Notes: generated from the sequence alone by a model not told the origin. Positions 6,435 to 64,000 are shown, counted from the stretch's first letter. The stretch: 64,000 nt of DNA from an uncultured Chitinophagales bacterium (GCA_964572485.1 CAZNGA010000001.1:30565-94564); one strand, 5' to 3'. Numbers and translations: made by a program.

Positions 6435-6435
6435 G

Positions 6436-10260: not shown

Positions 10261-10465
10261 TATATTGTTGTTAGGAATAATAAAGTGCTACCAATATATT
10301 ATTTCTCCATTGCTAATGCCTTCATGTAGGTTTACTCCTACTTGTTCACAATACGGCATAGAAGCTATAAACAAACATGGGCCGCTTAAAGGTGGCTGGT
10401 TGGCACTAAAAAGAATATTGTCATGTCACCCATGGGGAAAACATGGCCATGACCCTGTTCCTTAA
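10235..10465 (+). CDS. yidD: Membrane protein insertion efficiency factor YidD
   Basis: 76 aa with [15 protein letters not shown] and [25 protein letters not shown], the hallmark YidD sequence. Confidence 0.92.
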
Positions 10466-10496
10466 TTAAAATATTGATCAGTAAAAATCTATTAAA

Positions 10497-34142: not shown

Positions 34143-35954
34143 CTAATTGATTTGATCACCCCTTATCTTTCTAAACCTTTTGCGAGCCTCAACGATCCAA
34201 ATACTACCCGAATACCCCACTATAAGTTGCTGATATAGTTTCATTGCTTTCTCTGTGTCATTCAGTTTTTCTTCATAAATACAGGCTAATTTAAAAATGG
34301 CGTCATCAGCCAATATTTCATAAGGATAGTTGGATATTATCTCATCCAGAAGCTTCGCAGCCCCGATGTAATCTCTTGTTTGTATTCTTATCTCTGCTTG
34401 TGCGTTGAGTACATCATCGGACAACGTATGGCCGGGGAATAGCTTTTTGATAGAGTCTAGCATTACAAATGCTTTTTCAAGGCTATTTTGAAAGATAAGC
34501 ATATCCGCTTCCGCATACATGAGCATAGGTACCAAAATGGTATCCAAGGCCAAATGATCTTGAATGAACACATACAGGTCGATCGCATCATTTGAGATCA
34601 ATTCAGAAGTTGCTGCTTGCAATACTTGTAGTTGGGCTTGTGCCCATTCAAAGTCTCCCTTCAAATAAGATAATTTTGCGTTTTTGAACCGAGCTAGTTC
34701 ACCAATAGGGCCATCTTTAAATGATTTGGAAACTTGAGAATATAGTAATGTTGATTCCCAGTAGTCACCGGTCATTAAATAATAATCTCCAAGGGTTAAT
34801 TTGCTATTTCCCACTAGCACCTTGCTTATTCCTCGGATTTTGTGTAAACCTTCCAATAATAGTATAGCAGAGTCAATATTATGAAGATATAGCGCTTCAA
34901 GGTTGGCAAGGCCATCAATTATTTGAGCCGTTGAAGCATTTTTGCCATAGTTGGTGAGTAGATGTTTATAATCTTTCTTTAGCAGTAAAAGATCATCCTT
35001 TGTATATGTATTGGTGCTTACTATTTTGGCTTTTTTACAATCAAGAAGTTCAATTCTTGCTGATAGGTTATAGTGATCATTTGGATTTCTGGCAATGATA
35101 TACTCATATGCCTCAATTGCTGCATCATAGGCAGTTTCCTTGAACGCCATACGAGCCAATTTAAGAATGCGAATACCATTTCCCTTTAGTCGACGGTCTA
35201 ATGCCTTCACCTGAATAAAAGCTGCCTTAAAGTCTTTATTTTGAATCAACTGCCATATCAATAGTTCAGAAAAAATAATAGCATCAGGGTGTTTTTGGAT
35301 CTTTCTGTACAATTGACTTTGGAGTTCATTGAATTGTGCCTTTTTGGTCAAAGACCTTTGAAGGTTGTTTTTGACAGATTGAAGCATTTTAGGATCACTT
35401 TCCAAAACACCAAGATAGACCACTATCATATTTTTGTAGTCGCCCTTTTTTTCATAAATGGAGGCAACTTCAAAGCTAAACATACCGGGAATACCATATA
35501 GTCTCTGACCTTTTAAGTACGTCTTCAAAGCATACTCATATTCTTCAATCACAAGGAAGGCATTGGCCAAAGTACTGATCTTGATTCTATCCTTGGGAAT
35601 TTGATTAATGGTTTTATCATATTGATTGGTAGCCTTGGATGTGTTGCCGGCTATAAAATACACGCGCCCAAGATCAACCATATAGATGAGGGAGCCCGGA
35701 TTTTGCTTGATCACCTTTTTTACGATCTTTTCACCTTTCTTATAATCTTCTAACTCTAGTACAGTGTTAAGGTAATTACGGTATATCTCCTTAGAGGCGG
35801 GGTTCTTTGCAAACAACTTTTCGTAAAGAACTACAGCTTTTTCATATTCACCATTTAGATAGAATTCCTGAGCCAACATTTGGTCAAGGTTAACTTGTGC
35901 CTTCAGTGAGGGTATGAAAAAGAGAAAAGAAAATAAGATGATACAATGCCTCAT
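34143..35954 (-). CDS. Periplasmic TPR-repeat protein
   Basis: Start chosen at MRHCIILFSFLFFIPSLKAQ (signal peptide). TPR-like A/Y/L periodicity is repeated throughout. Confidence 0.72.
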   Translation of the reverse strand: MRHCIILFSFLFFIPSLKAQVNLDQMLAQEFYLNGEYEKAVVLYEKLFAKNPASKEIYRNYLNTVLELEDYKKGEKIVKKVIKQNPGSLIYMVDLGRVYFIAGNTSKATNQYDKTINQIPKDRIKISTLANAFLVIEEYEYALKTYLKGQRLYGIPGMFSFEVASIYEKKGDYKNMIVVYLGVLESDPKMLQSVKNNLQRSLTKKAQFNELQSQLYRKIQKHPDAIIFSELLIWQLIQNKDFKAAFIQVKALDRRLKGNGIRILKLARMAFKETAYDAAIEAYEYIIARNPNDHYNLSARIELLDCKKAKIVSTNTYTKDDLLLLKKDYKHLLTNYGKNASTAQIIDGLANLEALYLHNIDSAILLLEGLHKIRGISKVLVGNSKLTLGDYYLMTGDYWESTLLYSQVSKSFKDGPIGELARFKNAKLSYLKGDFEWAQAQLQVLQAATSELISNDAIDLYVFIQDHLALDTILVPMLMYAEADMLIFQNSLEKAFVMLDSIKKLFPGHTLSDDVLNAQAEIRIQTRDYIGAAKLLDEIISNYPYEILADDAIFKLACIYEEKLNDTEKAMKLYQQLIVGYSGSIWIVEARKRFRKIRGDQIN

Positions 35955-36014
35955 TTGATAAAAATATAGGAGAATGGGTTGATGGCGATAAGCCCTCAAT
36001 TGCAAATGAAGTTA

Positions 36015-36803
36015 TTAATCTACAAGTGTATAAACCAATCTTACATTAAAGGAGACTTTAACAGGCTTGCCCCTTTGCTTTCCCGGATTCCATTTGGGCA
36101 TAGCTTTCACATGTTTTAGGGCTGCCCGGTCCAACGTTTGATCAACCCCCCTGGCCACTTTAACATTAATGACGCTACCATCTTTGTCGACCACGAAATA
36201 GACCCAAACTGTTCCTTCAATATCATTTTCTGAAGCAATTGGAGGATATGGGGCTTTTAAAAGATACTGCTGTAAGGCATTGGGGCCTCCCGGAAATGCC
36301 GGGGGGTCCTCAACGATCATAAATATTTCATTTTCGTCGATCACGTCCTCTTCAATTTCAAGAATCTCTATTTCGGTGTCTTCATCAACATCCATTTCTT
36401 TGATAATTGGATCGTCCTCCACTTTTTCCTCATCTTTAACAATGTCTAATTTTGGAGGAGGAGGTGGTGGTGGTGGTGGTTTTTCTTGCTTGGTTTGAGG
36501 CGGTTCCACAATGATCTCTTCATCCACGACCAAAGGGCCCAAAGAACTTTCTTTATTATCGTATGTTGTCCATGTAAAAGCAAATAAGGCAAAACCAAGA
36601 GCACAAATAAAGCCAAAACGGAGAAATATACCCCTTTGGTGTTCCATATCTGCCTCGGGATATTTCTTAACAAATGCGGATTTGCTCTCCGGAGTCTCTT
36701 TATAAGATGACATGATCTTTTCACGATTGGTCCTGAAAGAATAGATGATGATAACTATTAAAACGATCAACACGCCGAAAGAATATAAGAAAAAAGGTAA
36801 CAT
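36015..36803 (-). CDS. tonB: Energy transducer TonB
   Basis: N-terminal TM anchor, a Pro-rich spacer containing nine consecutive Pro, and the C-terminal TonB domain PPAFPGGPNALQQYL...IEGTVWVYFVVDKDGSVINVKVARG. Confidence 0.85.
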   Translation of the reverse strand: MLPFFLYSFGVLIVLIVIIIYSFRTNREKIMSSYKETPESKSAFVKKYPEADMEHQRGIFLRFGFICALGFALFAFTWTTYDNKESSLGPLVVDEEIIVEPPQTKQEKPPPPPPPPPKLDIVKDEEKVEDDPIIKEMDVDEDTEIEILEIEEDVIDENEIFMIVEDPPAFPGGPNALQQYLLKAPYPPIASENDIEGTVWVYFVVDKDGSVINVKVARGVDQTLDRAALKHVKAMPKWNPGKQRGKPVKVSFNVRLVYTLVD

Positions 36804-36813
36804 ACCTAAAGGT

Positions 36814-37191
36814 TTAAATTCTGTTATATATCATGCTGAACAACAAGGTGCCTATAGTACAACCCATAAAATTAGCCAAAATATCCTTGATCTCAAAACT
36901 CCTTGTAATAATAAACACTCCCTGTATTACTTCAATAATCGTACCATAAAGAGCCACAATGAGAATTGCTGATACTATGGAATTATAACGAAGTACCCTA
37001 AATGAATATTGCTTTTTGAATCCTACAATAAGCAGATAGCACAATACACCAAAGAGAAAGCAATGAACAAAAACATCAAAGGGGACAAATAGAATAAGGT
37101 TGACTACTAAAAGGTTTTTGGAAGGTAATATTAGCAAGAGCAAGATCATTAATGCCCATCCCAATCCTAATAAATTGTATCTTAAGAACAT
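36814..37191 (-). CDS. VanZ-like membrane protein
   Basis: Four hydrophobic helices and the C-terminal GTIIEVIQGVFIITRSFEIKDILANFMGCTIG (VanZ-like E..Q..R....D motif). The start was moved to the Met downstream of the gcvH stop. Confidence 0.55.
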   Translation of the reverse strand: MFLRYNLLGLGWALMILLLLILPSKNLLVVNLILFVPFDVFVHCFLFGVLCYLLIVGFKKQYSFRVLRYNSIVSAILIVALYGTIIEVIQGVFIITRSFEIKDILANFMGCTIGTLLFSMIYNRI

Positions 37192-52809: not shown

Positions 52810-54630
52810 ATGATAAACAAAGAACTATATCGATCATTTCAGAGAATTGCAGGAAAGGCATATGTGCTATTCATATGCTGTTTCATCCTCTTTTCCTATC
52901 ATGGATTAAGTCAGAACGTGGTATTCACTGCTTCCTTGAATAAAAATCAAGTTGCATTCAATGACAAGTTCAAATTGACCTTTACCATACAAAATGGCAA
53001 CCCTAAAAACTTCCAGCCCCCCCACTTTAAGTACTTTCATGTGCTTAGTGGGCCCAATGCAGTACAAGAAGATCTGAACATAAATGGTCATCGCACAAAG
53101 TACAAATCATTCACTTATTACTTGCAACCAAAAGCAGTTGGGAAATTTTCAATTGATGGGGCCAGGGTAACAATTAATGGGCAAGTAATTGTATCAAATA
53201 AGGTTTCAATTCATGTGGTTCCTGCAACAAAGAAGACCAAGGAGACGAGCAACATTGATAAGAATGTCTTTTTAAGAGCAGTTGTAGATAAGAAAAGTGT
53301 TTATCAAGGGGAGCAGATCATCGTTACCTATAAAATATATACCCGCCTGAACATTTCAAATTATCAGGTCAATAAGATGCCCACTAATTCTGGATTTTGG
53401 TCTCATAATATTAAGGAGTTCAATCAATTACACCAACAAAGTGAAGTTATAGATGGAGTAGAATACAGGGTAGGAATTCTTAAAAAGGAGGCTCTGTTTC
53501 CTCAAAAGAGCGGCACTTTGTATATAGAACCTATCGAGATGTCGGTAACCATCACTGTACAAGATAAATCGAGAAGTAGGAATATCTTTGACAACTTTTC
53601 CATTTTTGGCGGCTACAGAAATATAAACCGTGTGCTCACCAGTAAAAAGGTAAAGATCAATGTCAAGGAGTTACCCGAGGCTAATAAGCCTGCTAATTAT
53701 AATGGAGCAGTTGGTAGTTTCAGTTTTGATGTGACCCTTGATAAGGAGCAAACAAAAGCCAATGATCCCATAACTGTGAAGACAACGATCTCCGGAAAGG
53801 GAAACATAAAATTGATCTCAAAGCCGGAGGTGGAGTTTCCCCCAAATTTTGAAGTGTATGATCCTAAAATAGCAGAGAAGATATCCTCCAAGGGCAGTGA
53901 GATCAAAGGATCTAAAACCTTTGAATATCTTGCTATACCTCGTTTACCGGGAGAGTATAAATTGCCGGGGATCTCATTCTCTTATTTTGATATTGATAAG
54001 AAGAAATACATCACCCTCACCTCACCGGATTACTTTATAGAAGTAAGCAAAGGTGATGGAATTACAAATGCACCAGCTTCAAGTGGCATCACTAAGGAGG
54101 AAATTGCTCTGTTGGGTGAAGACATTAGGTTCATTAAAATTGGTGATGTACAATTGATGAAGAAGGAAAAAGCATTTTATGGCTCTATGGTATTTTTTAT
54201 ACTCCTGGGAATGCCTTTCATATTGTTCATTTTTCTGATCACCTATTTGAAGAGATATAAAAAGCTACAAAGTAATGTGGCCTTATTGAAAACAAGAAGA
54301 GCCAATAAAATTGCCAGGAAGAGAATGGTCGTTGCAAAGAAGCTATTAAAGCAAAATAATTACAAAGAATTTTATGATGAGATCGCCAAAGCCATCTGGG
54401 GATATCTGGGTGATAAGTTAAATATTCAAGCAGCTGAGTTAAGCAAAGATAAAGCAGAAGAAGTATTTAAGACCAGGAATATTGATGGGGAACTGGTAAA
54501 ACAAGTTCTTGAAACACTGGATACTTGTGAGATGGCCTTATTTTCACCATCCGCCAGAGAAGGAGGGATGGATAAGACCTATCATGATGCAATACGTTTA
54601 ATCGCTAATTTAGAAAATACGATCAGGTGA
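52810..54630 (+). CDS. batD: BatD (oxygen-tolerance family) membrane protein
   Basis: 606 aa with repeated beta-rich ectodomains, a TM helix near residue 480 (MVFFILLGMPFILFIFLI), and a cytoplasmic helical tail. Its position in the operon fits BatD. Confidence 0.78.
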   Translation: MINKELYRSFQRIAGKAYVLFICCFILFSYHGLSQNVVFTASLNKNQVAFNDKFKLTFTIQNGNPKNFQPPHFKYFHVLSGPNAVQEDLNINGHRTKYKSFTYYLQPKAVGKFSIDGARVTINGQVIVSNKVSIHVVPATKKTKETSNIDKNVFLRAVVDKKSVYQGEQIIVTYKIYTRLNISNYQVNKMPTNSGFWSHNIKEFNQLHQQSEVIDGVEYRVGILKKEALFPQKSGTLYIEPIEMSVTITVQDKSRSRNIFDNFSIFGGYRNINRVLTSKKVKINVKELPEANKPANYNGAVGSFSFDVTLDKEQTKANDPITVKTTISGKGNIKLISKPEVEFPPNFEVYDPKIAEKISSKGSEIKGSKTFEYLAIPRLPGEYKLPGISFSYFDIDKKKYITLTSPDYFIEVSKGDGITNAPASSGITKEEIALLGEDIRFIKIGDVQLMKKEKAFYGSMVFFILLGMPFILFIFLITYLKRYKKLQSNVALLKTRRANKIARKRMVVAKKLLKQNNYKEFYDEIAKAIWGYLGDKLNIQAAELSKDKAEEVFKTRNIDGELVKQVLETLDTCEMALFSPSAREGGMDKTYHDAIRLIANLENTIR

Positions 54631-55385
54631 ATATAAGAATGACCATAGGGGTAGTTTGTTGGCTTTTGACATTGAATGTCAGTGGCATGGAGGGCAATTC
54701 TATGTTTGATCGGGCAAATGAACTATACGTTAAAGGACGTTATGATTCGGCCATCACTATTTATAAAGACATATTATCTGAGGGGCATGAATCCGGGGCG
54801 ATCTACTATAATCTTGGGAATGCATATTATCACAAGAGAGATATTGCCAATGCGATCTTATTCTATGAAAAGGCAGTGAAGCTGGCTCCAAATGATGAGG
54901 ACATCATTTTTAATCTAAAGTTGGCCAACCTTAAGATCTCTGATAAAATTGAACCCCTTCCCCAAATGTATGTGGTAAGAAAGTGGAAGTCCCTGATACA
55001 GATGAGTAATTCATATGGATGGTCAGTAGTTTTCCTGATCGCAGTGTGGACAGCTTTCCTTGCAGGAGTAAGTGTATTGTTGTCTCCAAACATTCGTGTG
55101 AAGAGAGCTTCCTTTTTTCTTGGGGTGTTCCTATTGTTGATCTGTTGTTGTACGCTTATCTTTTCAAATAGCAGATACAAGATCGAAGAGGATGATCGGT
55201 ATGCGATACTATTTTCTCCAAGTGCCTATGTGAAAAGCGCTCCTGATGAGTCGAGCAAGGATCTATTTATTATTCATGAAGGGATAAAGATAAAGATCGT
55301 TTATGAGGTTGGAGAATGGAATAAGATAAGACTTGCTGATGGAAAGCAAGGATGGCTGGAGAAGAAGGACCTTGAAAGGATATAG
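54627..55385 (+). CDS. batE: BatE (TPR + TM + C-terminal SH3-like domain)
   Basis: TPR (AITIYKDILSEG, AILFYEKAVKLAPND), two TM helices, and an SH3b-like end (EWNKIRLADGKQGWLEKKDL). GTGA overlap with batD; an alternative ATG lies at 54639. Confidence 0.75.
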   Translation: MNIRMTIGVVCWLLTLNVSGMEGNSMFDRANELYVKGRYDSAITIYKDILSEGHESGAIYYNLGNAYYHKRDIANAILFYEKAVKLAPNDEDIIFNLKLANLKISDKIEPLPQMYVVRKWKSLIQMSNSYGWSVVFLIAVWTAFLAGVSVLLSPNIRVKRASFFLGVFLLLICCCTLIFSNSRYKIEEDDRYAILFSPSAYVKSAPDESSKDLFIIHEGIKIKIVYEVGEWNKIRLADGKQGWLEKKDLERI

Positions 55386-55437: not shown

Positions 55438-56325
55438 TCACAATCCTCTTTGCCATTCCTGCCTCAAATTAGCCAACTCCGGATTATCTATGGCATGCTT
55501 CAGGCGTTCAAGAAAATCTTGCTTGTCTCTTGACAAGATCCCTGATAATACCAGATAATTTGAAGCATGATTACTGCGAAAGATCGTAGCATCAAGCTCG
55601 GTATGTTCAATGAAAATCTCCATTTCACGTAACAGATCCAGGATGGACATGGGAACATAATTGCCTGCAAAGCGCTCTTTATATCTGTCAATACCATAAG
55701 GGAAGCTGAGGACCAGCACAGAAGCATATTCGGGCTGTATCTCATTGAGCACCTTCGCAGAATTGATGGCATGTTGTTGACTGTATTCAAGCCCTCCTAC
55801 ACCATTCAATATGATGGCTGACACCTTTATCCCTGCTTCTTTTGCTTTCAGCAGCCCCTTCGCAGTAGTGTCAAAGGTCTCGTTCTTATTCATATGTTTA
55901 AGCACCTCATCATCACCTGATTCTATTCCCACATAGATCATTTTCAGGCCATTACTTCTTACCTCTTTTAGTTCTTCAGGAGATTTTGCCAGAAGGTCTC
56001 TGGGAAGAGAATAGGTGGAGATCCTGTTTATCTTCGGGAAGTTATCATTAAGAGCTTTGAGTATTGTAAGCAATCTTCTAGTTGAGAGTGCCATAGGGTT
56101 GCCATCTGCCAAAAAAACTTTCCTAACATCTTTAGTGAGAGCTCCAATGGTATTGATCTCCTTAAGAACCGCGTCTTCATTACGGGTTTTGAACTTTTTG
56201 TCATTGTACATCTCACAGAAGGCGCATTGATTCCATGTACAACCAAAGGTAACTTGAATGATCAATGAATTGGCTTCACTGGGAGGCCGGTATAATCGTT
56301 GAACGTATTCTAAGGGATAATGCAT
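55438..56325 (-). CDS. Minimal radical SAM enzyme, substrate unknown
   Basis: The only three Cys residues in the protein form FGCTWNQCAFCEMY (CX4CX2C). GGE-like FLADGNP, and VGIESGDDEVL typical of the radical SAM TIM barrel. There is no auxiliary-cluster cysteine. Confidence 0.82.
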   Translation of the reverse strand: MHYPLEYVQRLYRPPSEANSLIIQVTFGCTWNQCAFCEMYNDKKFKTRNEDAVLKEINTIGALTKDVRKVFLADGNPMALSTRRLLTILKALNDNFPKINRISTYSLPRDLLAKSPEELKEVRSNGLKMIYVGIESGDDEVLKHMNKNETFDTTAKGLLKAKEAGIKVSAIILNGVGGLEYSQQHAINSAKVLNEIQPEYASVLVLSFPYGIDRYKERFAGNYVPMSILDLLREMEIFIEHTELDATIFRSNHASNYLVLSGILSRDKQDFLERLKHAIDNPELANLRQEWQRGL

Positions 56326-56374
56326 GATACAATAAAGATAGCGGTTCTCTATTTTTCTTTAGTGCAAAAGAAGA

Positions 56375-56554
56375 TTATTTTTTCACATCGTAGTAACAAC
56401 GCTTTGGCGAATAGATTTTATCTTCCTTTTTTAGATTTGCGATAGCAATGACCACGTCTTTCTTGTCAAGGCCTGTTATCTTCACGAGGTCACCAGGGAG
56501 TAAAGGTTCTTCTGATTCAGATAATGTTGCTATTATGATCTTTGAATGTTCCAT
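56375..56554 (-). CDS. 59-aa winged-helix (DsrD/MarR-like) small protein
   Basis: Start chosen at MEHSKIIIATL. LLPGDLVKITGLDKKDVVIAIANLKKEDKIYSPKRCYYDV has the helix-turn-helix plus wing pattern. It lies 49 nt upstream of the radical SAM gene on the same strand. Confidence 0.5.
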   Translation of the reverse strand: MEHSKIIIATLSESEEPLLPGDLVKITGLDKKDVVIAIANLKKEDKIYSPKRCYYDVKK

Positions 56555-56586
56555 GGTAATGATCATTTTTTAGAAAACTATTAAGC

Positions 56587-56795: not shown

Positions 56796-58622
56796 TTAAT
56801 TAAGTTCCGGCAGTGTATATAGCCTTCCTTCATTTTTCTTTTGGAGGAACTCCATCAGAGGCTCAAAATATTGAAGCATCGCATTTGCGCTCATTTTTTC
56901 CCCTGTAATTTCTTCTAAAAGAACCCTCCAGTCTTTGGTAGCACCGGGTTGCATGATCTTTGTTAGGAATTTTCCAACCTCTTTATTCCCATAATAATTA
57001 GTTGCATGAGGATCTTGTTTTAAGATCTTAGTGGCGATATAGTCATGAAATTGAAAGAGGAGTACATATGAGATCGCATAATCATAATATTGGGCCGCAT
57101 CATTGTTAATATGTGTCTTTGATGCTGCATCACAGAATTCTTCACCACGTTCTTCTTCACAAACAATGCCCTGGTATTGCTTTTTGAGCTCCCACCAACG
57201 CTTATTGAACTGGTCAGGGGGCAGTTCATTCGTATAGAGATCATATTCAAATTCGGTCATCACACCCGCACCCCAGGGAATGAATACAATGTAGTTCAAA
57301 GCTTCCTTTAATAAGGCCTGAATCTCCTGATCTTTTAAGGCAGCGCTATCGATGTCATCTTCCTCAGGAAGAAGATCCAAATGATCGAGAAATGGCTTTT
57401 GCATGGCCGCCAATCCCATCAAACTACCCATTGCCTCATGAAATCCTCTGTTAGCACCACTACGTAGGAGGAGAGGCACTTCCGGATTCGTATAGGAGAT
57501 ATAGTAGTATATATGTCCTAATTCGTGATGAGTGGTCTCATACCATCTTGTGTTGGGGACCACACTCATTAAACACCTTACATCCTCTTGCAGGTTCAGG
57601 TGCCAGGCCGAAGCATGATTGTTCTTCTTGTAGGTCGCACCATCAGGCAGGGGATATAAGTCGGATCTATCATAAAAGCTTTGTGGCAGTTCATCAAATC
57701 CCAAACTAATATAAAAACGCTCTGCCTGCTCCACCATCCAATTACTTGTAAGGTTTTTCAAAACCGACTCAAGGTCAAGGCCTTCAACGGTGACCATTGA
57801 TGCCCAATCCTGACCCCAGCGATTTGGAAGCCAATGAGCGGGAAGCATTTCAGGCACCTCTTCAACATTGAATTTTTTTGCCAATTCATAGCGGGCATAG
57901 GTGTGCAGTTCCCTGTACAATGGCCATATCTCTTTATTCATCTGGCGGGTAATTTCAATCAGCTCCTTTGTACTGATCCCGTAATCTGATACCTGGTAAG
58001 TGAAATAGTCATTGTATCCTAACGCCTGAACGGTCTTATTTCTAAGATCCCTCAAATTCTCAAGGCCGGATTTCAATGACACTCCCACCTCTTTACTGCA
58101 AGCCCATGCTGCTGCTCTTTTTGCAAGATCGTTACTGGTATCAAGTATAGCATCAATTGCATTGGTGGTTAAAGTGTCGCCATTCATGATAAAATTAAAA
58201 CCATATAATTTTTCAGTCTGCTCTGTTTCCGCTTTTATCCTTGATTTAACAATGTCGGGGATCGTTTGAGGATTGTTGGCGGCGGCATACAGGATCGTCT
58301 CAAACTGTTTGAGTTGTAATCCCGTTAACCCCTCTTTATTTTCTAAAAAATATTTGGCCTTTTCAATGTTTTCGGTACTTCCCGTAAATTCGGCATATGC
58401 TTCTTGTGATTTTCTTGTTGCTATTGAATTCGTGGAGTCCCCTTCAATGATCATCGTGTTGGATTTCCATGCTGCTTTTTCGGCAGTATAGATCAGATCT
58501 TTAACCTGCTCTGAATAACTGTCAAGAAATTTCTGGGCCTCTTCGGAAATGGTCTCTTCCTTCTCAGGAGCACATCCCAAGAAAAATGATGTGATCGCCA
58601 AAAAATAGATAATTTTTTTCAT
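56796..58622 (-). CDS. M2-family (angiotensin-converting-enzyme-like) zinc metallopeptidase, lipoprotein
   Basis: Lipobox FFLGC, zinc motif TTHHELGHIYYY (HEXXH), and downstream GANRGFHEAMGSLMGLA, which parallels the ACE GANPGFHEAIGD third-ligand region. Confidence 0.85.
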   Translation of the reverse strand: MKKIIYFLAITSFFLGCAPEKEETISEEAQKFLDSYSEQVKDLIYTAEKAAWKSNTMIIEGDSTNSIATRKSQEAYAEFTGSTENIEKAKYFLENKEGLTGLQLKQFETILYAAANNPQTIPDIVKSRIKAETEQTEKLYGFNFIMNGDTLTTNAIDAILDTSNDLAKRAAAWACSKEVGVSLKSGLENLRDLRNKTVQALGYNDYFTYQVSDYGISTKELIEITRQMNKEIWPLYRELHTYARYELAKKFNVEEVPEMLPAHWLPNRWGQDWASMVTVEGLDLESVLKNLTSNWMVEQAERFYISLGFDELPQSFYDRSDLYPLPDGATYKKNNHASAWHLNLQEDVRCLMSVVPNTRWYETTHHELGHIYYYISYTNPEVPLLLRSGANRGFHEAMGSLMGLAAMQKPFLDHLDLLPEEDDIDSAALKDQEIQALLKEALNYIVFIPWGAGVMTEFEYDLYTNELPPDQFNKRWWELKKQYQGIVCEEERGEEFCDAASKTHINNDAAQYYDYAISYVLLFQFHDYIATKILKQDPHATNYYGNKEVGKFLTKIMQPGATKDWRVLLEEITGEKMSANAMLQYFEPLMEFLQKKNEGRLYTLPELN

Positions 58623-58721: not shown

Positions 58722-59945
58722 TCATTCAAGCGTTTTAAGCAAATCTGTTGCATTGTTCTTATAGGGCCCCGGAGCTGATGATATCTCTCTTAAAAGCAAG
58801 ACGGCGTCTTCTTTCTTGCCTTTTTTCAGGTAGGCCTGGGCTTTTTGCCATTGGGCAGACTTATAATATTTGTTGGAAGTATTGGCAGTTACCTTATTGA
58901 AATATTCAATGGCTTTACCGGGTTTGCCGATGTTCACATAAGATACGCCGCAATGAAATAAAGCGGTGGAATTATTGGGGTCTTTACTCAATAGCTTTTT
59001 GAATGTTTTGATCGATGCATTGTAGTTGCCTGAATTGTATTGTTGCAAACCGATATTTTGTAGGTTTTCCTGAGATGATCTATCACTGCTACCTGAGTTG
59101 CTGGTTTTTCTTGAATAGTAGGATGGTTGACTATCATCCTTTGCTATCTCATCAGCAACTTCTGCATCGGTGTTGGAGGATTCGGGCACGCCTGCAGCTG
59201 AGGTCTTCGGTGCCAATTTTACTCTTTTGATATTTGTGAGCTCATCATTAAAGATGGTCCTTCCCCTCTCGGTAACATATTCACCATCCACTTTTTTATC
59301 AGCATCCTTTACTTCTTCCTTTCTCTCCTCTTTTTCTTTTTTCTTTCTTTCTCCGGCAGCTTCAACAGTTGTCACAGGTGCATACAGATCTTGAGCAACC
59401 TCACTTGAATTTTCAGTATACCCATTTGGTCCTTGCCCTGCCTGAGCAATTTCACTAATTTCATCCTTCACCACATCAGTCTCTTTTAACACAGGAGTCA
59501 TTTTGCTTTGGTCTTCTGATACATCCCTTCCAACCACTTCTTCAATATTCTCTGCAACAACACCTTGGGAAGGATCTTTGAAATCAATATTTATGAGCAG
59601 CACAACGCTGACCAGGATAATAATGGCAACTGATGCAGCCACTAATTGCCTAACACCCACAATAAGGACTTTCTGCTTCTTACTTTTTGTTACTATTTGG
59701 ATTTCCTCATTAATTGAATTTATACTTTCCGTGATGCTGGAGCGGTCATTTGAATTGCTCAAACCCTCTAAGGCTTCTGTACAAAATTCGCAATCGATCA
59801 AATGTTTCTCTACATTCAATTTATCTTTGGCAGAGAGCTTACCATCCAGGTACTTGTTCATTGTACCCAAAGCAAGACAAGCAGTATCAGAGAAGAGATC
59901 TCCTGCTTCTAAATTTTTGCCGCTATGTTTTGAGTTGTCATCCAT
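58722..59945 (-). CDS. Anti-sigma factor: zf-HC2 + TM + acidic linker + TPR
   Basis: EKHLIDCEFCTEALEG (H-x3-C-x2-C), TM helix LVAASVAIIILVSVVLLI, an E/K/D-rich extracytoplasmic linker, and C-terminal TPRs. The start overlaps the sigma gene stop by 8 nt. Confidence 0.75.
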   Translation of the reverse strand: MDDNSKHSGKNLEAGDLFSDTACLALGTMNKYLDGKLSAKDKLNVEKHLIDCEFCTEALEGLSNSNDRSSITESINSINEEIQIVTKSKKQKVLIVGVRQLVAASVAIIILVSVVLLINIDFKDPSQGVVAENIEEVVGRDVSEDQSKMTPVLKETDVVKDEISEIAQAGQGPNGYTENSSEVAQDLYAPVTTVEAAGERKKKEKEERKEEVKDADKKVDGEYVTERGRTIFNDELTNIKRVKLAPKTSAAGVPESSNTDAEVADEIAKDDSQPSYYSRKTSNSGSSDRSSQENLQNIGLQQYNSGNYNASIKTFKKLLSKDPNNSTALFHCGVSYVNIGKPGKAIEYFNKVTANTSNKYYKSAQWQKAQAYLKKGKKEDAVLLLREISSAPGPYKNNATDLLKTLE

Positions 59946-60531
59946 CTTTTTTCAATAAATAGTTTTTCAAATTCCTTTTACCATTTTGTAGATAACTTTT
60001 TACCTGCTTCAGTGAATATCCTGTGATCTCTGTTATTTCCTGATAACATTTTTCCTCCAAATAGAATAATTCTATACACTTCTTCTGTTCATTTTTCAAC
60101 GAAACCATAGCACTTTGCAAGTTGCTTACTAATGATTCTGTGTTTTCTTCATTATTAAGATGCTTAACCAATGGATTTTCCACAAGTTCAGCTTCAATTT
60201 TTCTAAATTCCTCCTCATGTTTCGTTTCAACATTCTCCTTTCTTAGCTTCATGAGGCAATGGTTTTTGGTAACCGTGAAGAGCCATCCTTTAAAGTTCTT
60301 AATGGCATGCTTTTTAAGGGCGGTGATCAGGTATTCAAATATCTCCATCACCATATCCTTACAATCATCTTCATTTTTGAGATATTTCATAGCGACACCA
60401 AATACAAGGTGGGTATACCTTTGGAAAAGCTCACCCACATACGCATTGTCATGAGAGTTGCGGAACTTTAAGACGAGGTCATAGTCTGAAATTTGACCTT
60501 CTTTTTTGCTTTTGTCAAACAGAAATTTCAT
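59938..60531 (-). CDS. ECF-type RNA polymerase sigma-70 factor
   Basis: Start chosen at MKFLFDK. Region 2 (YTHLVFGVAMKYLKNEDDCKDMVMEIF, FKGWLFTVTKN) and region 4 HTH (CYQEITEITGYSLKQVKSYLQNGKRNL). Confidence 0.88.
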   Translation of the reverse strand: MKFLFDKSKKEGQISDYDLVLKFRNSHDNAYVGELFQRYTHLVFGVAMKYLKNEDDCKDMVMEIFEYLITALKKHAIKNFKGWLFTVTKNHCLMKLRKENVETKHEEEFRKIEAELVENPLVKHLNNEENTESLVSNLQSAMVSLKNEQKKCIELFYLEEKCYQEITEITGYSLKQVKSYLQNGKRNLKNYLLKKDG

Positions 60532-60691
60532 ATGGGGGTGTGTACACAAACAAAAATAGAAAATCGCAGAGGTATAAACAAAAATATTTTGATTTATGGA
60601 AAATGAAGAGGTTGTGCATCTAATAGATAAGTGAGACGAAGAAACAAAGTATTAATTCACCTATATCTATTAATAAATAAAATCAAAAATC

Positions 60692-63067
60692 ATGGAAACA
60701 AGAGAAAGATTTAATGAACAACTAAAGATCATTTTGTGGATGACTTTCTTAACGGTGATCTCATCTGTGGCATTTGCTCAGATCAATGAAAGTAGCGGAG
60801 ATAAGACGCTGTCCCCTTACTTTTTTGTAAGAAGTAGTGATCCCGAACTGGATAAGTTGCCACTTAAAAGTACCTCGGCGGATGTAAATATCGCCGGAGT
60901 GATCGCGAATGTACTTATAGAGCAGGTCTATAAAAATGAAGGCAAGAAGGCACTGGAAGCGATATACGTGTTTCCGGCTTCAACAAGGGCTGCAGTGTAC
61001 AGCATGAAAATGACAATTGGTGAACGTACCATTATTGCCAAAATAAAGGGGAAGCAACAGGCACGGCAAGATTATGAGGAAGCCCGTCAAAATGGGCAAA
61101 CTGCCTCATTATTGGAGCAACAAAGGCCAAATGTCTTTCAAATGAATGTAGCTAACATCATGCCTGGAGATATCATTAAAGTGGCCATGGCCTATACTGA
61201 ACTTCTGGTCCCAGATGAAGGGATCTATGAATTCTCATATCCTACGGTTGTAGGCCCACGGTATTCAGAGCAGCCGGCCGCATTAGCTTCGGCAAGTGAA
61301 AAGTGGATCGAGAATCCATACACGCAAGCAGGTGAAAAACCCTTCTATACATTTGATCTAACAGCCAGCATCAAAACAGGGATTCCCATCAAAGATATAA
61401 CCTGTACTTCTCATGATGTAAATGTAAGTTATGATGGCCCTGCATCAGCAATGATCAAATTAAAGGAGACCGAAAAATTTGACGGCAACCGAGACTATAT
61501 ATTAAAGTATCGTCTTCGAGGGCATAAAGTAGAATCGGGGCTGTTGCTATATGAAGGTGAGAAGGAGAATTTTTTCCTACTGATGGTGCAACCTCCCAAA
61601 AGGGTGATACCTGACCAAATTCCACCACGAGAGTATATATTTATTGTTGATGTTTCAGGATCGATGCATGGATTTCCATTGGGAATTTCAAAGGAACTAC
61701 TGCGCGATCTGATCGGCAAGCTGAGACCTACAGACGTTTTTAATGTGATCCTCTTTGCCGGAACAGCAACGCAGATGGCTGAAAAGTCAATACCTGCAAC
61801 AAGCGCAAATATCAGTAAAGCGATAAATGTGATCGACAAACAACGAGGCGGTGGCGGAACACGATTGCTTCCTGCATTGCAGAGAGCATTGAATCTGCCG
61901 GGAATAGAGGATGTCTCTAGAAGCATTGTGATCGCTACTGATGGTTATGTGAGTGTTGAAAAGGAAGCCTTTGACCTGATACGGAAGAATCTGGGAAGAG
62001 CTAATTTCTTTTCATTTGGTATTGGCTCAAGTGTTAACAGGTATATCATTGAAGGGATGGCCCATGTTGGTATGGGAGAACCATTTGTCCTCACCAATGG
62101 TAGTGAAGCCAAAGAAAATGCGGTAAAATTCAGAAAATACATTGAATCCCCTGTGTTGACAAATATAACTCTTGATTTCGGCGGACTTGATGTTTACGAT
62201 GTAGAGCCGTTGAGTATACCTGATGTGTTGGCTGAGCGACCTGTTATTGTATTTGGTAAGTACAATGGAAGTGCTGAAGGAAAGATCACCCTGAAAGGTA
62301 TGACAGGGAGTGATGAGTATTTAAAAACAATAAATGTAGGTTCCGTGAAGCCACAAAAGACAAATGAAGCACTAAGGAACCTGTGGGCCCGGCATCGCAT
62401 CAAAATATTGGATGATTATAACCACCTGAGAGCTGACGCTGAACTTATTGAAGAGATCACCCAGATCGGCTTAGAGTACAATTTGCTCACCGCCTATACC
62501 TCTTTTATCGCCATCGATTCTAAAGTACGAGGTGATGGAAGTGTCACAACTGTTAAGCAACCCTTGCCATTACCACAAGGGGTTTCAAATCATGCCATTG
62601 GAGGAAATGCTTATCCAACACAATCCTATAAGACACCTAACCTGAAAATGATCCAATCAGATCGGAATTCCTATCGCACCCAGTCATCAGGAGCCGGCGG
62701 ATATAATGTGGAGATATTGGAAGATAGCGAAGTTACTAAACAGGCTGCTGAGCCACTTAAGGCCTCAGAGGTAGATGTTGCACCTTCTTTTGTGGGAGGT
62801 ACCCAGAAGATGCAGGAGTTCATCAAAAAGAACCTCAGATATCCTATGGGAGCCAGGTCGAAAGGGATCGAAGGAACAGTTGTTGTGAGCTTTACTGTTG
62901 GGAAAGATGGTAAGATCACAGGGATTAAAGTGATCAGGAAGGTGGGTAAAGAGTTGGATGCTGAAGCTATCAGGATCATCAAACTCATGCCTTCATGGAA
63001 AGCAGGCCTTCATAAAGGACAAAAAGTAGCTGTCCGATATACGATACCAATTCAATTCAAGTTGTAA
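60692..63067 (+). CDS. Secreted VIT domain + VWA domain protein with a C-terminal TonB-C domain
   Basis: Signal peptide ending VAFAQ. VIT-like N-terminal region (LPLKSTSADVNIAGVIANVLIEQVYKNEG), VWA MIDAS motif IVDVSGSMHG, and a last ~95 aa colinear with the C-terminal domain of the TonB gene at 36015-36803. Confidence 0.85.
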   Translation: METRERFNEQLKIILWMTFLTVISSVAFAQINESSGDKTLSPYFFVRSSDPELDKLPLKSTSADVNIAGVIANVLIEQVYKNEGKKALEAIYVFPASTRAAVYSMKMTIGERTIIAKIKGKQQARQDYEEARQNGQTASLLEQQRPNVFQMNVANIMPGDIIKVAMAYTELLVPDEGIYEFSYPTVVGPRYSEQPAALASASEKWIENPYTQAGEKPFYTFDLTASIKTGIPIKDITCTSHDVNVSYDGPASAMIKLKETEKFDGNRDYILKYRLRGHKVESGLLLYEGEKENFFLLMVQPPKRVIPDQIPPREYIFIVDVSGSMHGFPLGISKELLRDLIGKLRPTDVFNVILFAGTATQMAEKSIPATSANISKAINVIDKQRGGGGTRLLPALQRALNLPGIEDVSRSIVIATDGYVSVEKEAFDLIRKNLGRANFFSFGIGSSVNRYIIEGMAHVGMGEPFVLTNGSEAKENAVKFRKYIESPVLTNITLDFGGLDVYDVEPLSIPDVLAERPVIVFGKYNGSAEGKITLKGMTGSDEYLKTINVGSVKPQKTNEALRNLWARHRIKILDDYNHLRADAELIEEITQIGLEYNLLTAYTSFIAIDSKVRGDGSVTTVKQPLPLPQGVSNHAIGGNAYPTQSYKTPNLKMIQSDRNSYRTQSSGAGGYNVEILEDSEVTKQAAEPLKASEVDVAPSFVGGTQKMQEFIKKNLRYPMGARSKGIEGTVVVSFTVGKDGKITGIKVIRKVGKELDAEAIRIIKLMPSWKAGLHKGQKVAVRYTIPIQFKL

Positions 63068-63080
63068 TTGGATCCTAACG

Positions 63081-63117
63081 AGATGGCATCTTATAGTATA
63101 GGGTGCCATCTTTTTTT
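63081..63117 (+). terminator. Hairpin plus T-run between convergent genes
   Basis: AGATGGCA-(15 nt)-TGCCATCT followed by T7. It overlaps the pbpC stop codon. Confidence 0.6.
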
Positions 63118-64000
63118 ATAATCGAACATATTTTACCGTTACCCAGATGTTCGTATTCCTACCTTTATCATCTGTGCAGGAGATCTTATTTCTGCCGGAT
63201 TCAGGCGTAAAGAAAGAGTAAGAGGTGGCTTCCACAGAACTGTGAAATCTATCATTGATATACCAATACACTAATTGCACATCGTTTGCGGCATTGCAAA
63301 CTAGCTTTATTTGTTGGGTATCACTTTTATCGATGAGATATTCAAGATTCGCCACAGGAGAGATGATCTGAGGTTCATTTTCTGAGAATACCCGCTCACA
63401 GTCAGGATTATGCTGAGGAACACGTTCATAGTTGATCCGTTGTTCTTCGTAATAAGCGATAATATCCGGCTTATAATTATCATAATATTTTTTCTTATAA
63501 CCGCCTTCAGGTAAACAAGTAGTACAATAGGAAGTCAGGGAATCGGGGGATACGTATACTTGCTGAAGGTGTGCGCATTCTTTGTTTGGTGAAGTTCCCG
63601 GAATATAGGTGTCGATGATGGGATCGTTACAGAAGTAAGCAGGGATCTCTCCGCTTTCCGGACATACAAATCGAAAATCAACTTCTTCCGGAACATCATA
63701 CCATTCATTGGGAGAATTGTAGTCAACGGTGTTGAATATATTGAATAGAAGGGGGGTAGCTATTTCAGCACCGCTGAGGTTAGGGACTCCCTCTGCTGAG
63801 AAGTTCCCCACCCACACACCAATGGTATAGGTTTTATTATATCCTATAGACCAGGCATCCCTTCTCCCATAGGAGGTGCCCGTTTTCCATGCCACCTTTG
63901 GTAAATGAAAGCTACTTTGCCAAAGGACGGGAAGATCGGGGCGGGTATGCTGGATCAGAATTTCTGTGACCATATAAGCGGCTGCCGGGGACATCAAATT
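63116..64000 (-). CDS. pbpC: Penicillin-binding protein 1C, C-terminal part (gene continues beyond the window)
   Basis: The frame is open to base 64000. KTGTS transpeptidase motif (WKTGTSYGRRDAWSIGY) followed by the Cys-containing PBP1C-specific C-terminal domain. Confidence 0.85.
   Translation of the reverse strand, partial: NLMSPAAAYMVTEILIQHTRPDLPVLWQSSFHLPKVAWKTGTSYGRRDAWSIGYNKTYTIGVWVGNFSAEGVPNLSGAEIATPLLFNIFNTVDYNSPNEWYDVPEEVDFRFVCPESGEIPAYFCNDPIIDTYIPGTSPNKECAHLQQVYVSPDSLTSYCTTCLPEGGYKKKYYDNYKPDIIAYYEEQRINYERVPQHNPDCERVFSENEPQIISPVANLEYLIDKSDTQQIKLVCNAANDVQLVYWYINDRFHSSVEATSYSFFTPESGRNKISCTDDKGRNTNIWVTVKYVRL

What the first reader, a model, noticed from the sequence alone, without database searches (positions are those of the whole stretch)
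58722..63067. ECF sigma / zf-HC2-TPR anti-sigma pair divergent from a secreted VIT-VWA-TonB_C protein: possible envelope signalling module
The sigma and anti-sigma genes overlap by 8 nt, which points to co-translation. The anti-sigma has a cytoplasmic H-x3-C-x2-C zinc finger, one TM helix, a long acidic linker and periplasmic TPRs, that is, a protein-binding sensor. The only gene sharing the 140-bp divergent control region is a 791-aa secreted protein with two adhesion or complex-forming domains and a TonB C-terminal domain. In classical cell-surface signalling (FecIR-FecA type), anti-sigma factors sense TonB-dependent events. A soluble TonB_C-bearing partner under ECF control would be a variation on that theme. 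The regulatory link is inferred from arrangement alone.
Basis: inference. Interest (0 to 1): 0.6.

Follow-up and report, generated by a model that had tools for sequence, protein, structure and literature searches.

The report
ECF sigma switch controlling VIT-VWA-TonB_C protein
A stress-type sigma factor and its membrane-bound inhibitor sit back to back with a secreted adhesion-like protein, and one conserved promoter motif, found in front of that protein and also inside the sigma gene, indicates that the sigma factor turns on both the protein and extra inhibitor.

Summary
A fixed-spacing ECF-like promoter motif (TTTATGGAAT-N13-GCATC) lies 71 nt upstream of the VIT-VWA-TonB_C gene at 60597-60620 (+). 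It recurs at the same place in most related Bacteroidota loci, including some where the sigma gene is not adjacent.

The same motif lies inside the sigma gene at 60159-60182 (-), about 210 nt before the anti-sigma start. In 88 orthologs it is kept by selection on synonymous sites. Orthologs that lack it carry the motif upstream instead. The likely circuit has three parts:
- Sigma is made from a housekeeping promoter.
- Sigma-dependent transcription drives the VIT-VWA-TonB_C gene.
- A sigma-dependent internal promoter makes extra anti-sigma, giving negative feedback.

This is not FecIRA-type cell-surface signalling. There is no FecR domain, no transducer with a signalling domain, and the sigma is not FecI-like. 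In relatives the VIT neighbour goes with anti-sigmas that end in TonB_C. TPR-ending anti-sigmas like this one had no VIT neighbour (0 of 19), so a specific TPR-VIT contact is not supported. The signal and the function of the VIT protein remain unknown. I rate it a new variant of a known kind, of moderate interest.

The parts
58722..59945 (-). Anti-sigma factor, 407 aa: cytoplasmic ZAS-like domain (C23, H48, C52, C55), one TM helix, acidic linker and periplasmic TPR domain
   Evidence: orthologous TPR-type anti-sigmas found
59721..59903 (-). Anti-sigma domain with the C-x24-H-x3-C-x2-C zinc-ligand set (residues about 15-75)
   Evidence: Pfam zf-HC2 20.7 bits; ligands conserved in about 44 of 55 orthologs
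59589..59648 (-). Single transmembrane helix of the anti-sigma (residues about 100-119)
   Evidence: the sequence itself
58776..59084 (-). Periplasmic TPR domain of the anti-sigma (residues 288-390)
   Evidence: Pfam TPR_2, TPR_19 and TPR_16; PDB TPR matches
59938..60531 (-). ECF sigma factor, 197 aa from the ATG at 60531 (the longest ORF starts at the TTG at 60549); overlaps the anti-sigma start by 8 nt
60159..60182 (-). Motif TGGAA-N14-GCATC inside the sigma gene (codons V E N P L V K H L of the sigma2-sigma4 linker); predicted sigma-dependent promoter for the anti-sigma gene
   Evidence: strong synonymous-site constraint in 88 orthologs and complementary distribution with upstream copies
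60551..60582 (-). Bacteroidetes housekeeping-type promoter candidate for the sigma gene: TTTG-N20-TATTTTTG, ending 19 nt before the ATG at 60531
   Evidence: read from the sequence; TAnnTTTG is on the sigma strand in 24 of 80 ortholog upstream regions against 7 of 80 on the other strand, which is weak support
60591..60626 (+). Predicted ECF-type promoter of the VIT gene: GATTTATGGAAAATGAAGAGGTTGTGCATCTAATAG (core 60597-60620), 71 nt before the ATG
60692..63067 (+). Secreted VIT-VWA-TonB_C protein, 791 aa: signal peptide 1-29, ITIH-like body about 40-630, disordered linker 632-692, TonB_C 700-791
62831..63064 (+). TonB C-terminal domain of the VIT protein (residues 714-791)
   Evidence: Pfam TonB_C 76.6 bits; PDB TonB C-terminal domain matches
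63080..63112 (+). Intrinsic terminator (15-pair stem followed by a T run) ending the VIT transcription unit

Best explanation
This is a three-gene envelope-signalling module of an uncharacterised, Bacteroidota-wide ECF sigma family.

Shown here:
- The genes, their domains and the 8-nt overlap.
- The conserved motif copies and their distribution among relatives.

Inferred:
- That the motif is this sigma's promoter.
- The direction of regulation and the feedback logic.
- Where the VIT protein sits in the cell and what it does.

Proposed circuit:
1. The sigma-anti-sigma operon is transcribed from a housekeeping-type promoter.
2. The membrane anti-sigma holds sigma through its ZAS-like cytoplasmic domain.
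3. An unknown periplasmic cue releases sigma. In this genome the cue is read by a TPR domain; in most VIT-linked relatives it is read by a TonB_C domain.
4. Free sigma uses the promoter TTTATGGAAT-N13-GCATC at two places in this locus.
5. The first copy is in front of the divergent, monocistronic VIT-VWA-TonB_C gene, which is the output.
6. The second copy is inside its own coding sequence, about 210 nt upstream of the anti-sigma start. It makes extra anti-sigma without extra sigma, which is negative feedback.

The product is probably a soluble periplasmic protein. It has an ITIH-like, MIDAS-bearing binding body tethered by a roughly 60-residue flexible linker to a TonB_C domain. That domain could dock on TonB boxes or related periplasmic partners.
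For: Motif upstream of the VIT gene:
- The exact motif TGGAA-N14-GCATC occurs 94 times in 1.70 Mb of related loci, where about 3 are expected from base composition.
- It occurs only twice in the 64-kb window, at the two places named above.
- It lies upstream of the VIT gene, or of a small TonB gene preceding it, pointing toward that gene, in 17 of 22 linked loci.
- It is also upstream of VIT genes that have no adjacent sigma: exact in L003, L013 and L027, and with one mismatch in L004, L017 and L018.
- It is absent upstream of non-Bacteroidota VIT genes.

Motif inside the sigma gene:
- It is exact in 53 of 88 sigma orthologs and has one mismatch in another 22.
- Synonymous sites are constrained:

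| Position | Observed | Elsewhere in the same genes |
|---|---|---|
| Glu codon | GAA 78 of 79 | 66% |
| His codon | CAT 74 of 74 | 58% |
| Val codon | GTG 33 of 33 | 32% |
| Codon before His | ends in G in 58 of 85, although the amino acid varies | 25% |

- Orthologs without the internal copy carry the motif upstream on the same strand: L096, L148, L116, L119, L144, and L122 with one mismatch.

Other support:
- The sigma tree shows VIT linkage scattered over several subclades, so the linkage looks ancestral.
- The VIT gene ends in a strong terminator.
- The other window neighbours are not conserved beside either gene family.
- Structure: the body matches ITIH1 (6fpy) at E = 3e-36, the linker 632-692 is disordered, and a TonB_C fold follows.
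- Precedent for a sigma-dependent promoter dedicated to the anti-sigma: E. coli rpoE-rseABC has a second sigmaE promoter upstream of rseA (PMC1312014).
Against: - There is no experimental transcription start site or expression data.
- The motif is assigned to this sigma only because the two are found together.
- The gap between the -35-like and -10-like elements is about 2 bp shorter than in textbook ECF promoters (comparison from my own knowledge).
- Only about 40% of Bacteroidota VIT loci (8 of about 20) and about 20% of sigma-ortholog loci (9 of 46) show the adjacency.
- The window is the only case found that combines a TPR-type anti-sigma with a VIT neighbour.
- The orthologs are related to one another, so the binomial P values overstate independence.
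- The housekeeping promoter call rests on a short consensus with only modest enrichment.
- The function of the VIT protein is a guess.
Confidence: 0.7

Rival explanations
1. The VIT-VWA-TonB_C protein is part of the sensing apparatus rather than only an output. It would act as a periplasmic co-sensor or ligand that binds the anti-sigma's periplasmic domain or competes with it for a common partner, so that induction feeds back on signalling.
For: - In Thermodesulfobacteriota-type loci an ECF sigma, a zf-HC2 anti-sigma and a VIT-VWA gene lie on one strand like an operon. That layout is typical of accessory signalling components.
- In Bacteroidota relatives the anti-sigma, a small TonB paralogue and the VIT protein all end in closely similar TonB_C domains: 45% identity within a locus against 40-42% across loci, and 74% in one case. 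This suggests a shared binding partner.
- Casas-Pastor et al. 2021 list a VWA-DUF3520 protein as the putative anti-sigma of group ECF289 (PMC7826278).
Against: - In this window the anti-sigma has TPR repeats, not TonB_C, so the shared-domain argument does not apply here.
- Sensor type and target type mix freely among orthologs.
- The VIT gene has its own sigma-type promoter and terminator, as expected for an output gene.
Confidence: 0.2
2. This is a variant of FecI-FecR-FecA cell-surface signalling, in which the anti-sigma senses TonB-dependent events at an outer-membrane transducer and the soluble TonB_C protein takes part in that relay.
For: - TonB_C domains recur throughout the module family, in anti-sigmas, small TonB paralogues and VIT proteins.
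- Some orthologous loci encode a stand-alone CarboxypepD_reg+Plug protein just upstream of sigma (L116, L119, L144). This brings in domains of the TonB-transporter interface.
Against: - The anti-sigma has no FecR, DUF4880 or DUF4974 domain.
- No TonB-dependent transducer with a signalling domain lies in the module or is conserved beside it.
- The sigma fails the Bacteroidetes FecI-like family cut-off (79 bits against 126).
- The window's anti-sigma sensor is TPR.
Confidence: 0.07
3. The adjacency in this genome is incidental. The sigma and anti-sigma pair regulates unlinked genes, and the VIT gene is controlled by something else.
For: - TPR-type sigma loci had no VIT neighbour (0 of 19).
- Many VIT genes have no adjacent sigma.
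Against: - The window's VIT gene carries a perfect copy of the family motif, with the extended TTTATGGAA flank, at a promoter-like distance.
- The only other exact copy in 64 kb is inside the adjacent sigma gene.
- The closest sigma relative (L001, 60% identity) has the same divergent VIT neighbour and the same motif.
Confidence: 0.05

Closest known systems
E. coli RpoE-RseA envelope stress system (ECF sigma with a single-pass anti-sigma)
   Same: - A two-domain ECF sigma is co-transcribed with a single-pass membrane anti-sigma.
- A sigma-dependent promoter dedicated to the anti-sigma gives negative feedback: there is a second sigmaE promoter upstream of rseA (PMC1312014).
   Different: - Here no sigma-type motif lies upstream of the sigma gene itself. 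The only operon copy is embedded in the sigma coding sequence, and a housekeeping-type box precedes sigma.
- The anti-sigma is ZAS-like with a TPR sensor. It is not RseA, and there is no RseB.
- The promoter sequence is different.
ZAS / zf-HC2 class I anti-sigma factors (RsrA, ChrR and RslA type)
   Same: - The H-x3-C-x2-C motif with an upstream Cys.
- Position directly downstream of sigma, overlapping it.
   Different: - The Pfam score is just under threshold (20.7 against 22.2 bits).
- This one is membrane-anchored with a large periplasmic TPR domain.
- About 20% of orthologs have lost all four ligands, so zinc or redox sensing is unlikely to be the signal.
FecI-FecR-FecA cell-surface signalling
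   Same: - An ECF sigma with a single-pass anti-sigma.
- Domains related to the Ton system are present in the module family.
   Different: - No FecR domain.
- No transducer with an N-terminal signalling domain.
- The sigma is not in the FecI-like family.
- The TonB_C domain is on a soluble VIT-VWA protein and, in relatives, on the anti-sigma itself.
Inter-alpha-trypsin inhibitor heavy chains (ITIH1/ITIH4) and PARP4 VIT-VWA modules
   Same: - A VIT domain followed by a VWA domain with a complete MIDAS motif.
- The predicted fold matches ITIH1 (6fpy) at E = 3e-36 over about 610 columns.
- Sequence matches to PARP4 and ITIH4.
   Different: - Bacterial and periplasmic.
- About 17% identity.
- It ends in a flexible linker and a TonB_C domain instead of the ITIH C-terminal region.
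TIGR03788 'marine proteobacterial sortase target' VIT-VWA proteins
   Same: The VIT-VWA body is homologous over residues 60-635 (416 bits).
   Different: - The score is below the family cut-off (551.65).
- There is no C-terminal sortase signal; TonB_C takes its place.
- The host is Bacteroidota.
ECF289 with a VWA-DUF3520 (YfbK_C) partner (Casas-Pastor et al. 2021, PMC7826278)
   Same: An ECF sigma is genomically tied to a secreted VWA protein. Some orthologs of this window's sigma have a CarboxypepD_reg-vWF_A-VWA-YfbK_C protein as their divergent, motif-bearing neighbour (L149, L155).
   Different: - There the VWA protein is proposed as the anti-sigma. Here a separate ZAS-like anti-sigma exists, and the VWA protein looks like a target.
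- Group assignment of this sigma could not be tested.

Membership tests
ECF (group 4) sigma-70 factors | Only the sigma2 and sigma4 domains, about 200 aa | tested here: met
   Sigma70_r2 43 bits and Sigma70_r4_2 32.7 bits; TIGR02937 83.9 bits against a cut-off of 42.9; 197 aa
ECF (group 4) sigma-70 factors | A cognate anti-sigma encoded next to it and co-transcribed | tested here: met
   8-nt overlap with a ZAS-like membrane protein; the pairing is conserved in the orthologous loci where the downstream gene could be read
ECF (group 4) sigma-70 factors | Recognises a bipartite -35/-10 promoter, usually at its own operon | tested here: inconclusive
   A conserved fixed-spacing motif is tied to the family, but no transcription data exist. 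In this locus the operon copy is internal, not upstream.
ZAS / zf-HC2 anti-sigma factors | H-x3-C-x2-C motif in an N-terminal anti-sigma domain | tested here: met
   C23, H48, C52 and C55 are present and conserved in about 44 of 55 orthologs
ZAS / zf-HC2 anti-sigma factors | Pfam PF13490 score above the gathering threshold | tested here: inconclusive
   20.7 bits against 22.2; ortholog L092 scores 24.8
ZAS / zf-HC2 anti-sigma factors | Binds zinc and binds sigma | not testable with these tools
   Needs biochemistry
FecI-FecR-FecA cell-surface signalling | Anti-sigma with FecR (PF04773) or DUF4974 periplasmic domains | tested here: not met
   No such hit at E <= 0.01; the periplasmic part is TPR
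FecI-FecR-FecA cell-surface signalling | Adjacent TonB-dependent transducer with an N-terminal signalling domain | tested here: not met
   The neighbours are VIT-VWA-TonB_C, an M2 peptidase and PBP1C; no transducer is conserved in related loci
FecI-FecR-FecA cell-surface signalling | Sigma belongs to the FecI-like / Bacteroidetes TIGR02985 family | tested here: not met
   79.1 bits against a cut-off of 126.4
VIT-VWA (ITIH-like) proteins | A VIT domain followed by a VWA domain with an intact MIDAS motif | tested here: met
   VIT 118 bits and VWA_3 51.5 bits; D320, S322, S324, T390 and D417 invariant; Foldseek match to 6fpy at E = 3e-36
TonB energy transducers | C-terminal TonB_C domain | tested here: met
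   PF03544 76.6 bits and TIGR01352 53.6 bits; PDB TonB C-terminal domain matches
TonB energy transducers | N-terminal membrane anchor that couples to ExbBD, followed by a proline-rich spacer | tested here: not met
   The N-terminus is a cleavable-type signal peptide that varies among homologues. A roughly 600-aa VIT-VWA body replaces the spacer.
TIGR03788 marine proteobacterial sortase target | Score above the equivalog cut-off and a C-terminal sortase signal | tested here: not met
   416.1 bits against 551.65; the C-terminus is TonB_C

The most novel reading that the evidence does not exclude
This sigma family may control a Bacteroidota periplasmic defence or capture regulon made of animal-like binding and trap proteins. 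The same promoter motif sits in front of VIT-VWA-TonB_C (ITIH-like), alpha-2-macroglobulin-like and YfbK-like VWA genes in different genomes.

In this reading the TonB_C domains on the anti-sigma, on a dedicated TonB paralogue and on the effector act as interchangeable docking modules that compete for one partner. The window's protein would then be an inducible soluble TonB_C decoy or tether. It would engage TonB boxes when the envelope is breached or attacked, while the promoter embedded in the sigma coding sequence limits the response to a pulse.
Probability: 0.2. Interest if true: 0.8.

Novelty: new variant of a known kind. Interest (0 to 1): 0.6.

Why it matters
ECF sigma factors are abundant regulators in Bacteroidota, averaging 22.5 per genome (PMC7826278), and few outside the SusC-linked group have a known promoter or regulon.

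This analysis gives one widespread family four testable features:
- a specific promoter sequence;
- candidate direct targets: VIT-VWA-TonB_C, and in other genomes alpha-2-macroglobulin-like and YfbK-like VWA proteins;
- two interchangeable sensor domains on the anti-sigma, TPR and TonB_C;
- a circuit in which the feedback promoter is written into the sigma gene's own codons.

It also gives the very large VIT-VWA-TonB_C protein family (more than 8000 database hits) a regulatory context that I did not find in the searchable literature. The TonB_C-ending anti-sigma factors, which I likewise did not find described there, may be a new way of coupling Ton-type contacts to transcription.

Tried and rejected
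- Literature searches for VIT/VWA with ECF sigma, TonB_C anti-sigma, ECF03 and macroglobulin with ECF found no description of this module. The supplements of the ECF reclassification paper are not held, so the ECF group number could not be assigned.
- An exact look-up of the window's VIT protein in the assembly index found nothing, so the source organism was not identified. The nearest homologues are Cytophagales, Chitinophagales and Bacteroidales MAGs.
- A protein search with the anti-sigma N-terminus found nothing. The word index is too coarse for this divergent domain.
- The idea that the downstream M2 peptidase belongs to the operon was rejected. It has its own TAnnTTTG box, and neither it nor PBP1C, the radical SAM gene, BatD or BatE is conserved beside sigma orthologs or VIT genes.
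- One-mismatch motif hits elsewhere in the window (35381, 48527, 54057, 61423) were rejected. Their number matches chance (6 found, 5.3 expected), and all are inside genes without the TTTA flank.
- A sigma4-only product from the internal transcript was rejected, because no Met is conserved downstream of the motif.
- A small leader peptide encoded by the intergenic motif (ATG GAA ... CAT CT) was considered and set aside. Only the motif bases are conserved, not the 14-nt spacer.
- TAnnTTTG enrichment upstream of sigma orthologs is modest (24 of 80 against 7 of 80). The housekeeping-promoter call is therefore tentative.

Full report
**1. Observation**

The three ORFs are present as described.

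- *Sigma.* ORF 59938-60549 (-) has Sigma70_r2 and Sigma70_r4_2 only and passes the ECF superfamily model TIGR02937. Alignment with orthologs places its start at the ATG at 60531.
- *Anti-sigma.* ORF 58722-59945 (-) overlaps sigma by 8 nt (ATGGATGA).
  - It carries C23-x24-H48-x3-C52-x2-C55. Pfam zf-HC2 is marginal at 20.7 bits against 22.2; an ortholog passes at 24.8.
  - It has one TM helix and a 161-aa linker of net charge -12.
  - TPR repeats span 288-390.
- *VIT protein.* ORF 60692-63067 (+) has a signal peptide, VIT, VWA with invariant MIDAS residues, and TonB_C.
  - An AlphaFold model (mean pLDDT 72) shows an ITIH1-like body (Foldseek 6fpy, E = 3e-36).
  - A disordered linker (632-692) and a TonB_C fold follow.
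  - The gene ends in a strong terminator at 63080-63112.

**2. Is the arrangement conserved?**

The VIT-VWA-TonB_C family is very large.

*From the VIT side.* I examined 80 genome loci.
- Eight Bacteroidota loci have a closely related sigma (E 1e-47 to 1e-75) divergent from the VIT gene: L001, L002, L006, L007, L011, L054, L065 and L080.
- About 12 Bacteroidota loci with enough upstream sequence have none.
- In the linked loci the anti-sigma ends in TonB_C rather than TPR. A small TonB paralogue (TM helix plus TonB_C) often precedes the VIT gene.
- In Thermodesulfobacteriota-type loci a distant ECF sigma and a zf-HC2 anti-sigma lie upstream of a VIT-VWA gene on the same strand. The ECF to VIT-VWA association therefore recurs across phyla.

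*From the sigma side.* I examined 80 metagenome loci of sigma orthologs. They have two anti-sigma flavours that share the N-terminal domain: TPR-ending, as in the window, and TonB_C-ending.

Divergent neighbours in the 46 loci with at least 1 kb upstream:

| Divergent or upstream neighbour | Loci |
|---|---|
| VIT or small TonB | 9 |
| YfbK-like VWA protein | 5 |
| Alpha-2-macroglobulin-like protein | 2 |
| CarboxypepD_reg+Plug protein just upstream of sigma | 3-4 |

VIT linkage by anti-sigma type in the same set:

| Anti-sigma type | VIT-linked | Total |
|---|---|---|
| TonB_C | 6 | 17 |
| TPR | 0 | 19 |

The difference gives Fisher p = 0.006. The window is the only TPR-plus-VIT case seen. 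In a neighbour-joining tree its sigma pairs with L001 (TonB_C type, VIT-linked) and is sister to a TPR clade without VIT. None of the window's other neighbours is conserved beside either family.

**3. The promoter motif**

Aligning the divergent intergenic regions revealed a fixed-spacing motif, TTTATGGAAT-N13-GCATC, pointing toward the VIT or small TonB gene in 17 of 22 linked loci.

- The window copy is GATTTATGGAAAATGAAGAGGTTGTGCATCTAATAG. Its core is 60597-60620 (+), 71 nt before the ATG.
- The exact core TGGAA-N14-GCATC occurs 94 times in 1.70 Mb of loci, against about 3 expected from base composition.
- It occurs only twice in the window. The one-mismatch hits in the window are at chance level and lie inside genes.
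- It also sits upstream of VIT genes that have no adjacent sigma: exact in L003, L013 and L027, and with one mismatch in L004, L017 and L018. It is absent from non-Bacteroidota VIT loci.
- The consensus of 40 non-coding sites is tTTTATGGAAT-N12-TGCATCyy.

**4. A copy inside the sigma gene**

The second window copy (60159-60182, -) lies in the sigma coding sequence, in the sigma2-sigma4 linker (codons L V E N P L V K H L N).

- It is exact in 53 of 88 orthologs and has one mismatch in 22 more.
- Synonymous positions are constrained:

| Position | Observed | Elsewhere in the same genes |
|---|---|---|
| Glu codon | GAA 78 of 79 | 66% |
| His codon | CAT 74 of 74 | 58% |
| Val codon | GTG 33 of 33 | 32% |
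| Codon before His | ends in G in 58 of 85, although the amino acid varies | 25% |
| Codon before Met/Val | ends in T in 75 of 86 | 26% |
| Codon after His | begins with C, although the residue is L, Q, P or H | not measured |

- Orthologs without the internal copy have the motif upstream on the same strand. It is directly before sigma in L096 and L148, and before a Plug gene that precedes sigma in L116, L119, L144 and (with one mismatch) L122.
- This complementary distribution argues that both placements are working promoters.
- The -10-like element ends a median of 218 nt before the anti-sigma start. No Met is conserved in between. The first product of such a transcript would therefore be the anti-sigma.
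- Upstream of the window's sigma gene there is instead a Bacteroidetes housekeeping-type box, TTTG-N20-TATTTTTG (60551-60582, -). This call is tentative.

**5. Mechanism**

The best-supported reading is as follows.
1. Sigma and anti-sigma are made constitutively.
2. An unknown periplasmic cue acts through the TPR domain and releases sigma.
3. Sigma then transcribes the monocistronic VIT-VWA-TonB_C gene.
4. From the internal promoter it also makes extra anti-sigma without extra sigma. This is a negative-feedback design.

E. coli provides a precedent for a second, anti-sigma-dedicated sigmaE promoter upstream of rseA (PMC1312014). The difference here is that no upstream autoregulatory copy is present.

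The VIT protein is probably periplasmic and soluble. It combines a metal-dependent binding body with a flexibly tethered TonB_C domain. What it binds is unknown.

The TonB_C domains of anti-sigma, small TonB and VIT proteins are about equally similar to one another. This hints at a common partner in the TonB_C-type modules. The signal, the partner and the physiological role are inferences, not results.

**6. Comparison with known systems**

- The module is a bona fide ECF sigma with a ZAS-like anti-sigma.
- It fails every testable defining feature of FecIRA-type cell-surface signalling.
- The VIT protein is ITIH-like. It is neither a TonB proper nor a TIGR03788 sortase target.
- I found no paper describing this module, TonB_C-ending anti-sigmas or the motif. 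The ECF group could not be assigned because the classification supplements are not held.

**7. Verdict**

The cell-surface-signalling analogy and the proposed TPR to VIT contact are not supported. I rate it a new variant of a known kind with interest 0.6. It offers a defined promoter, a candidate regulon, swappable sensor domains and a feedback promoter embedded in codons, all of which can be tested directly.

Noticed in passing
L128:3438-7895(-), L133:239-4717(-), L149:5947-7779(-), L155:225-2096(-), L116:1020-1769(+), L119:192-941(+): In other genomes the orthologous sigma's motif sits in front of different secreted proteins: an alpha-2-macroglobulin-like protein (1486 aa; MG2, A2M, TED), a CarboxypepD_reg-vWF_A-VWA-YfbK_C protein (about 620 aa), or a 250-aa stand-alone CarboxypepD_reg+Plug protein in an operon with sigma. 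This suggests a regulon of periplasmic binding or trap proteins.
   Followed up: partly
L031, L033, L037, L047 (and about 10 more non-Bacteroidota loci): In Thermodesulfobacteriota-type genomes a distantly related ECF sigma, a zf-HC2 anti-sigma and a VIT-VWA gene without TonB_C lie on one strand like an operon. This is an independent recurrence of the ECF to VIT-VWA link.
   Followed up: partly
L002:7623-8303(+), L006, L007, L054, L105, L108, L115, L117: A small TonB paralogue (TM helix plus TonB_C, 226-262 aa) is often the first gene behind the sigma-type promoter, ahead of the VIT gene. The window lacks it at this locus.
   Followed up: partly
L011 (anti-sigma 5890-7074(-) against small TonB 10398-11186(+)): The TonB_C domains of the anti-sigma and the small TonB in this locus are 74% identical, far above the usual 40-45%. 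This suggests recent domain exchange within the module.
   Followed up: no
anti-sigma orthologs in L081-L160: About 10 of 55 anti-sigma orthologs have lost all four putative zinc ligands together (C to V, H to L, C to D, C to A). Zinc is therefore dispensable in part of the family.
   Followed up: no
window 63116-64000 (-): The C-terminal part of a PBP1C gene (TIGR02073, BiPBP_C) is convergent with the VIT gene and shares the terminator region. It is cut by the window end. PBP1C is classically paired with a bacterial alpha-2-macroglobulin (from my own knowledge), which would lie beyond the window.
   Followed up: no
window 56796-58622 (-): A peptidase M2 (angiotensin-converting-enzyme family) lipoprotein of 608 aa (Pfam E = 3.7e-103) lies just downstream of the anti-sigma. 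It has its own TAnnTTTG box and is not conserved next to sigma orthologs.
   Followed up: partly
window 52810-55385 (+): BatD (PF13584) and a TPR-SH3 protein resembling BatE form the tail of a Bat-type (aerotolerance) operon, which also encodes VWA proteins upstream. This operon is unrelated to the sigma module.
   Followed up: no
window 36018-36830 (-): This is the only other ORF in the window with a TonB_C domain (phmmer E = 3e-16 against the VIT protein's TonB_C). It is about 270 aa and is probably a TonB. It lies directly upstream of (5' to) a 620-aa ORF on the same strand (34143-36005).
   Followed up: no
window 55438-56566 (-): A radical SAM protein (295 aa) is preceded by a 63-aa ORF with no Pfam match. 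Function unknown.
   Followed up: no
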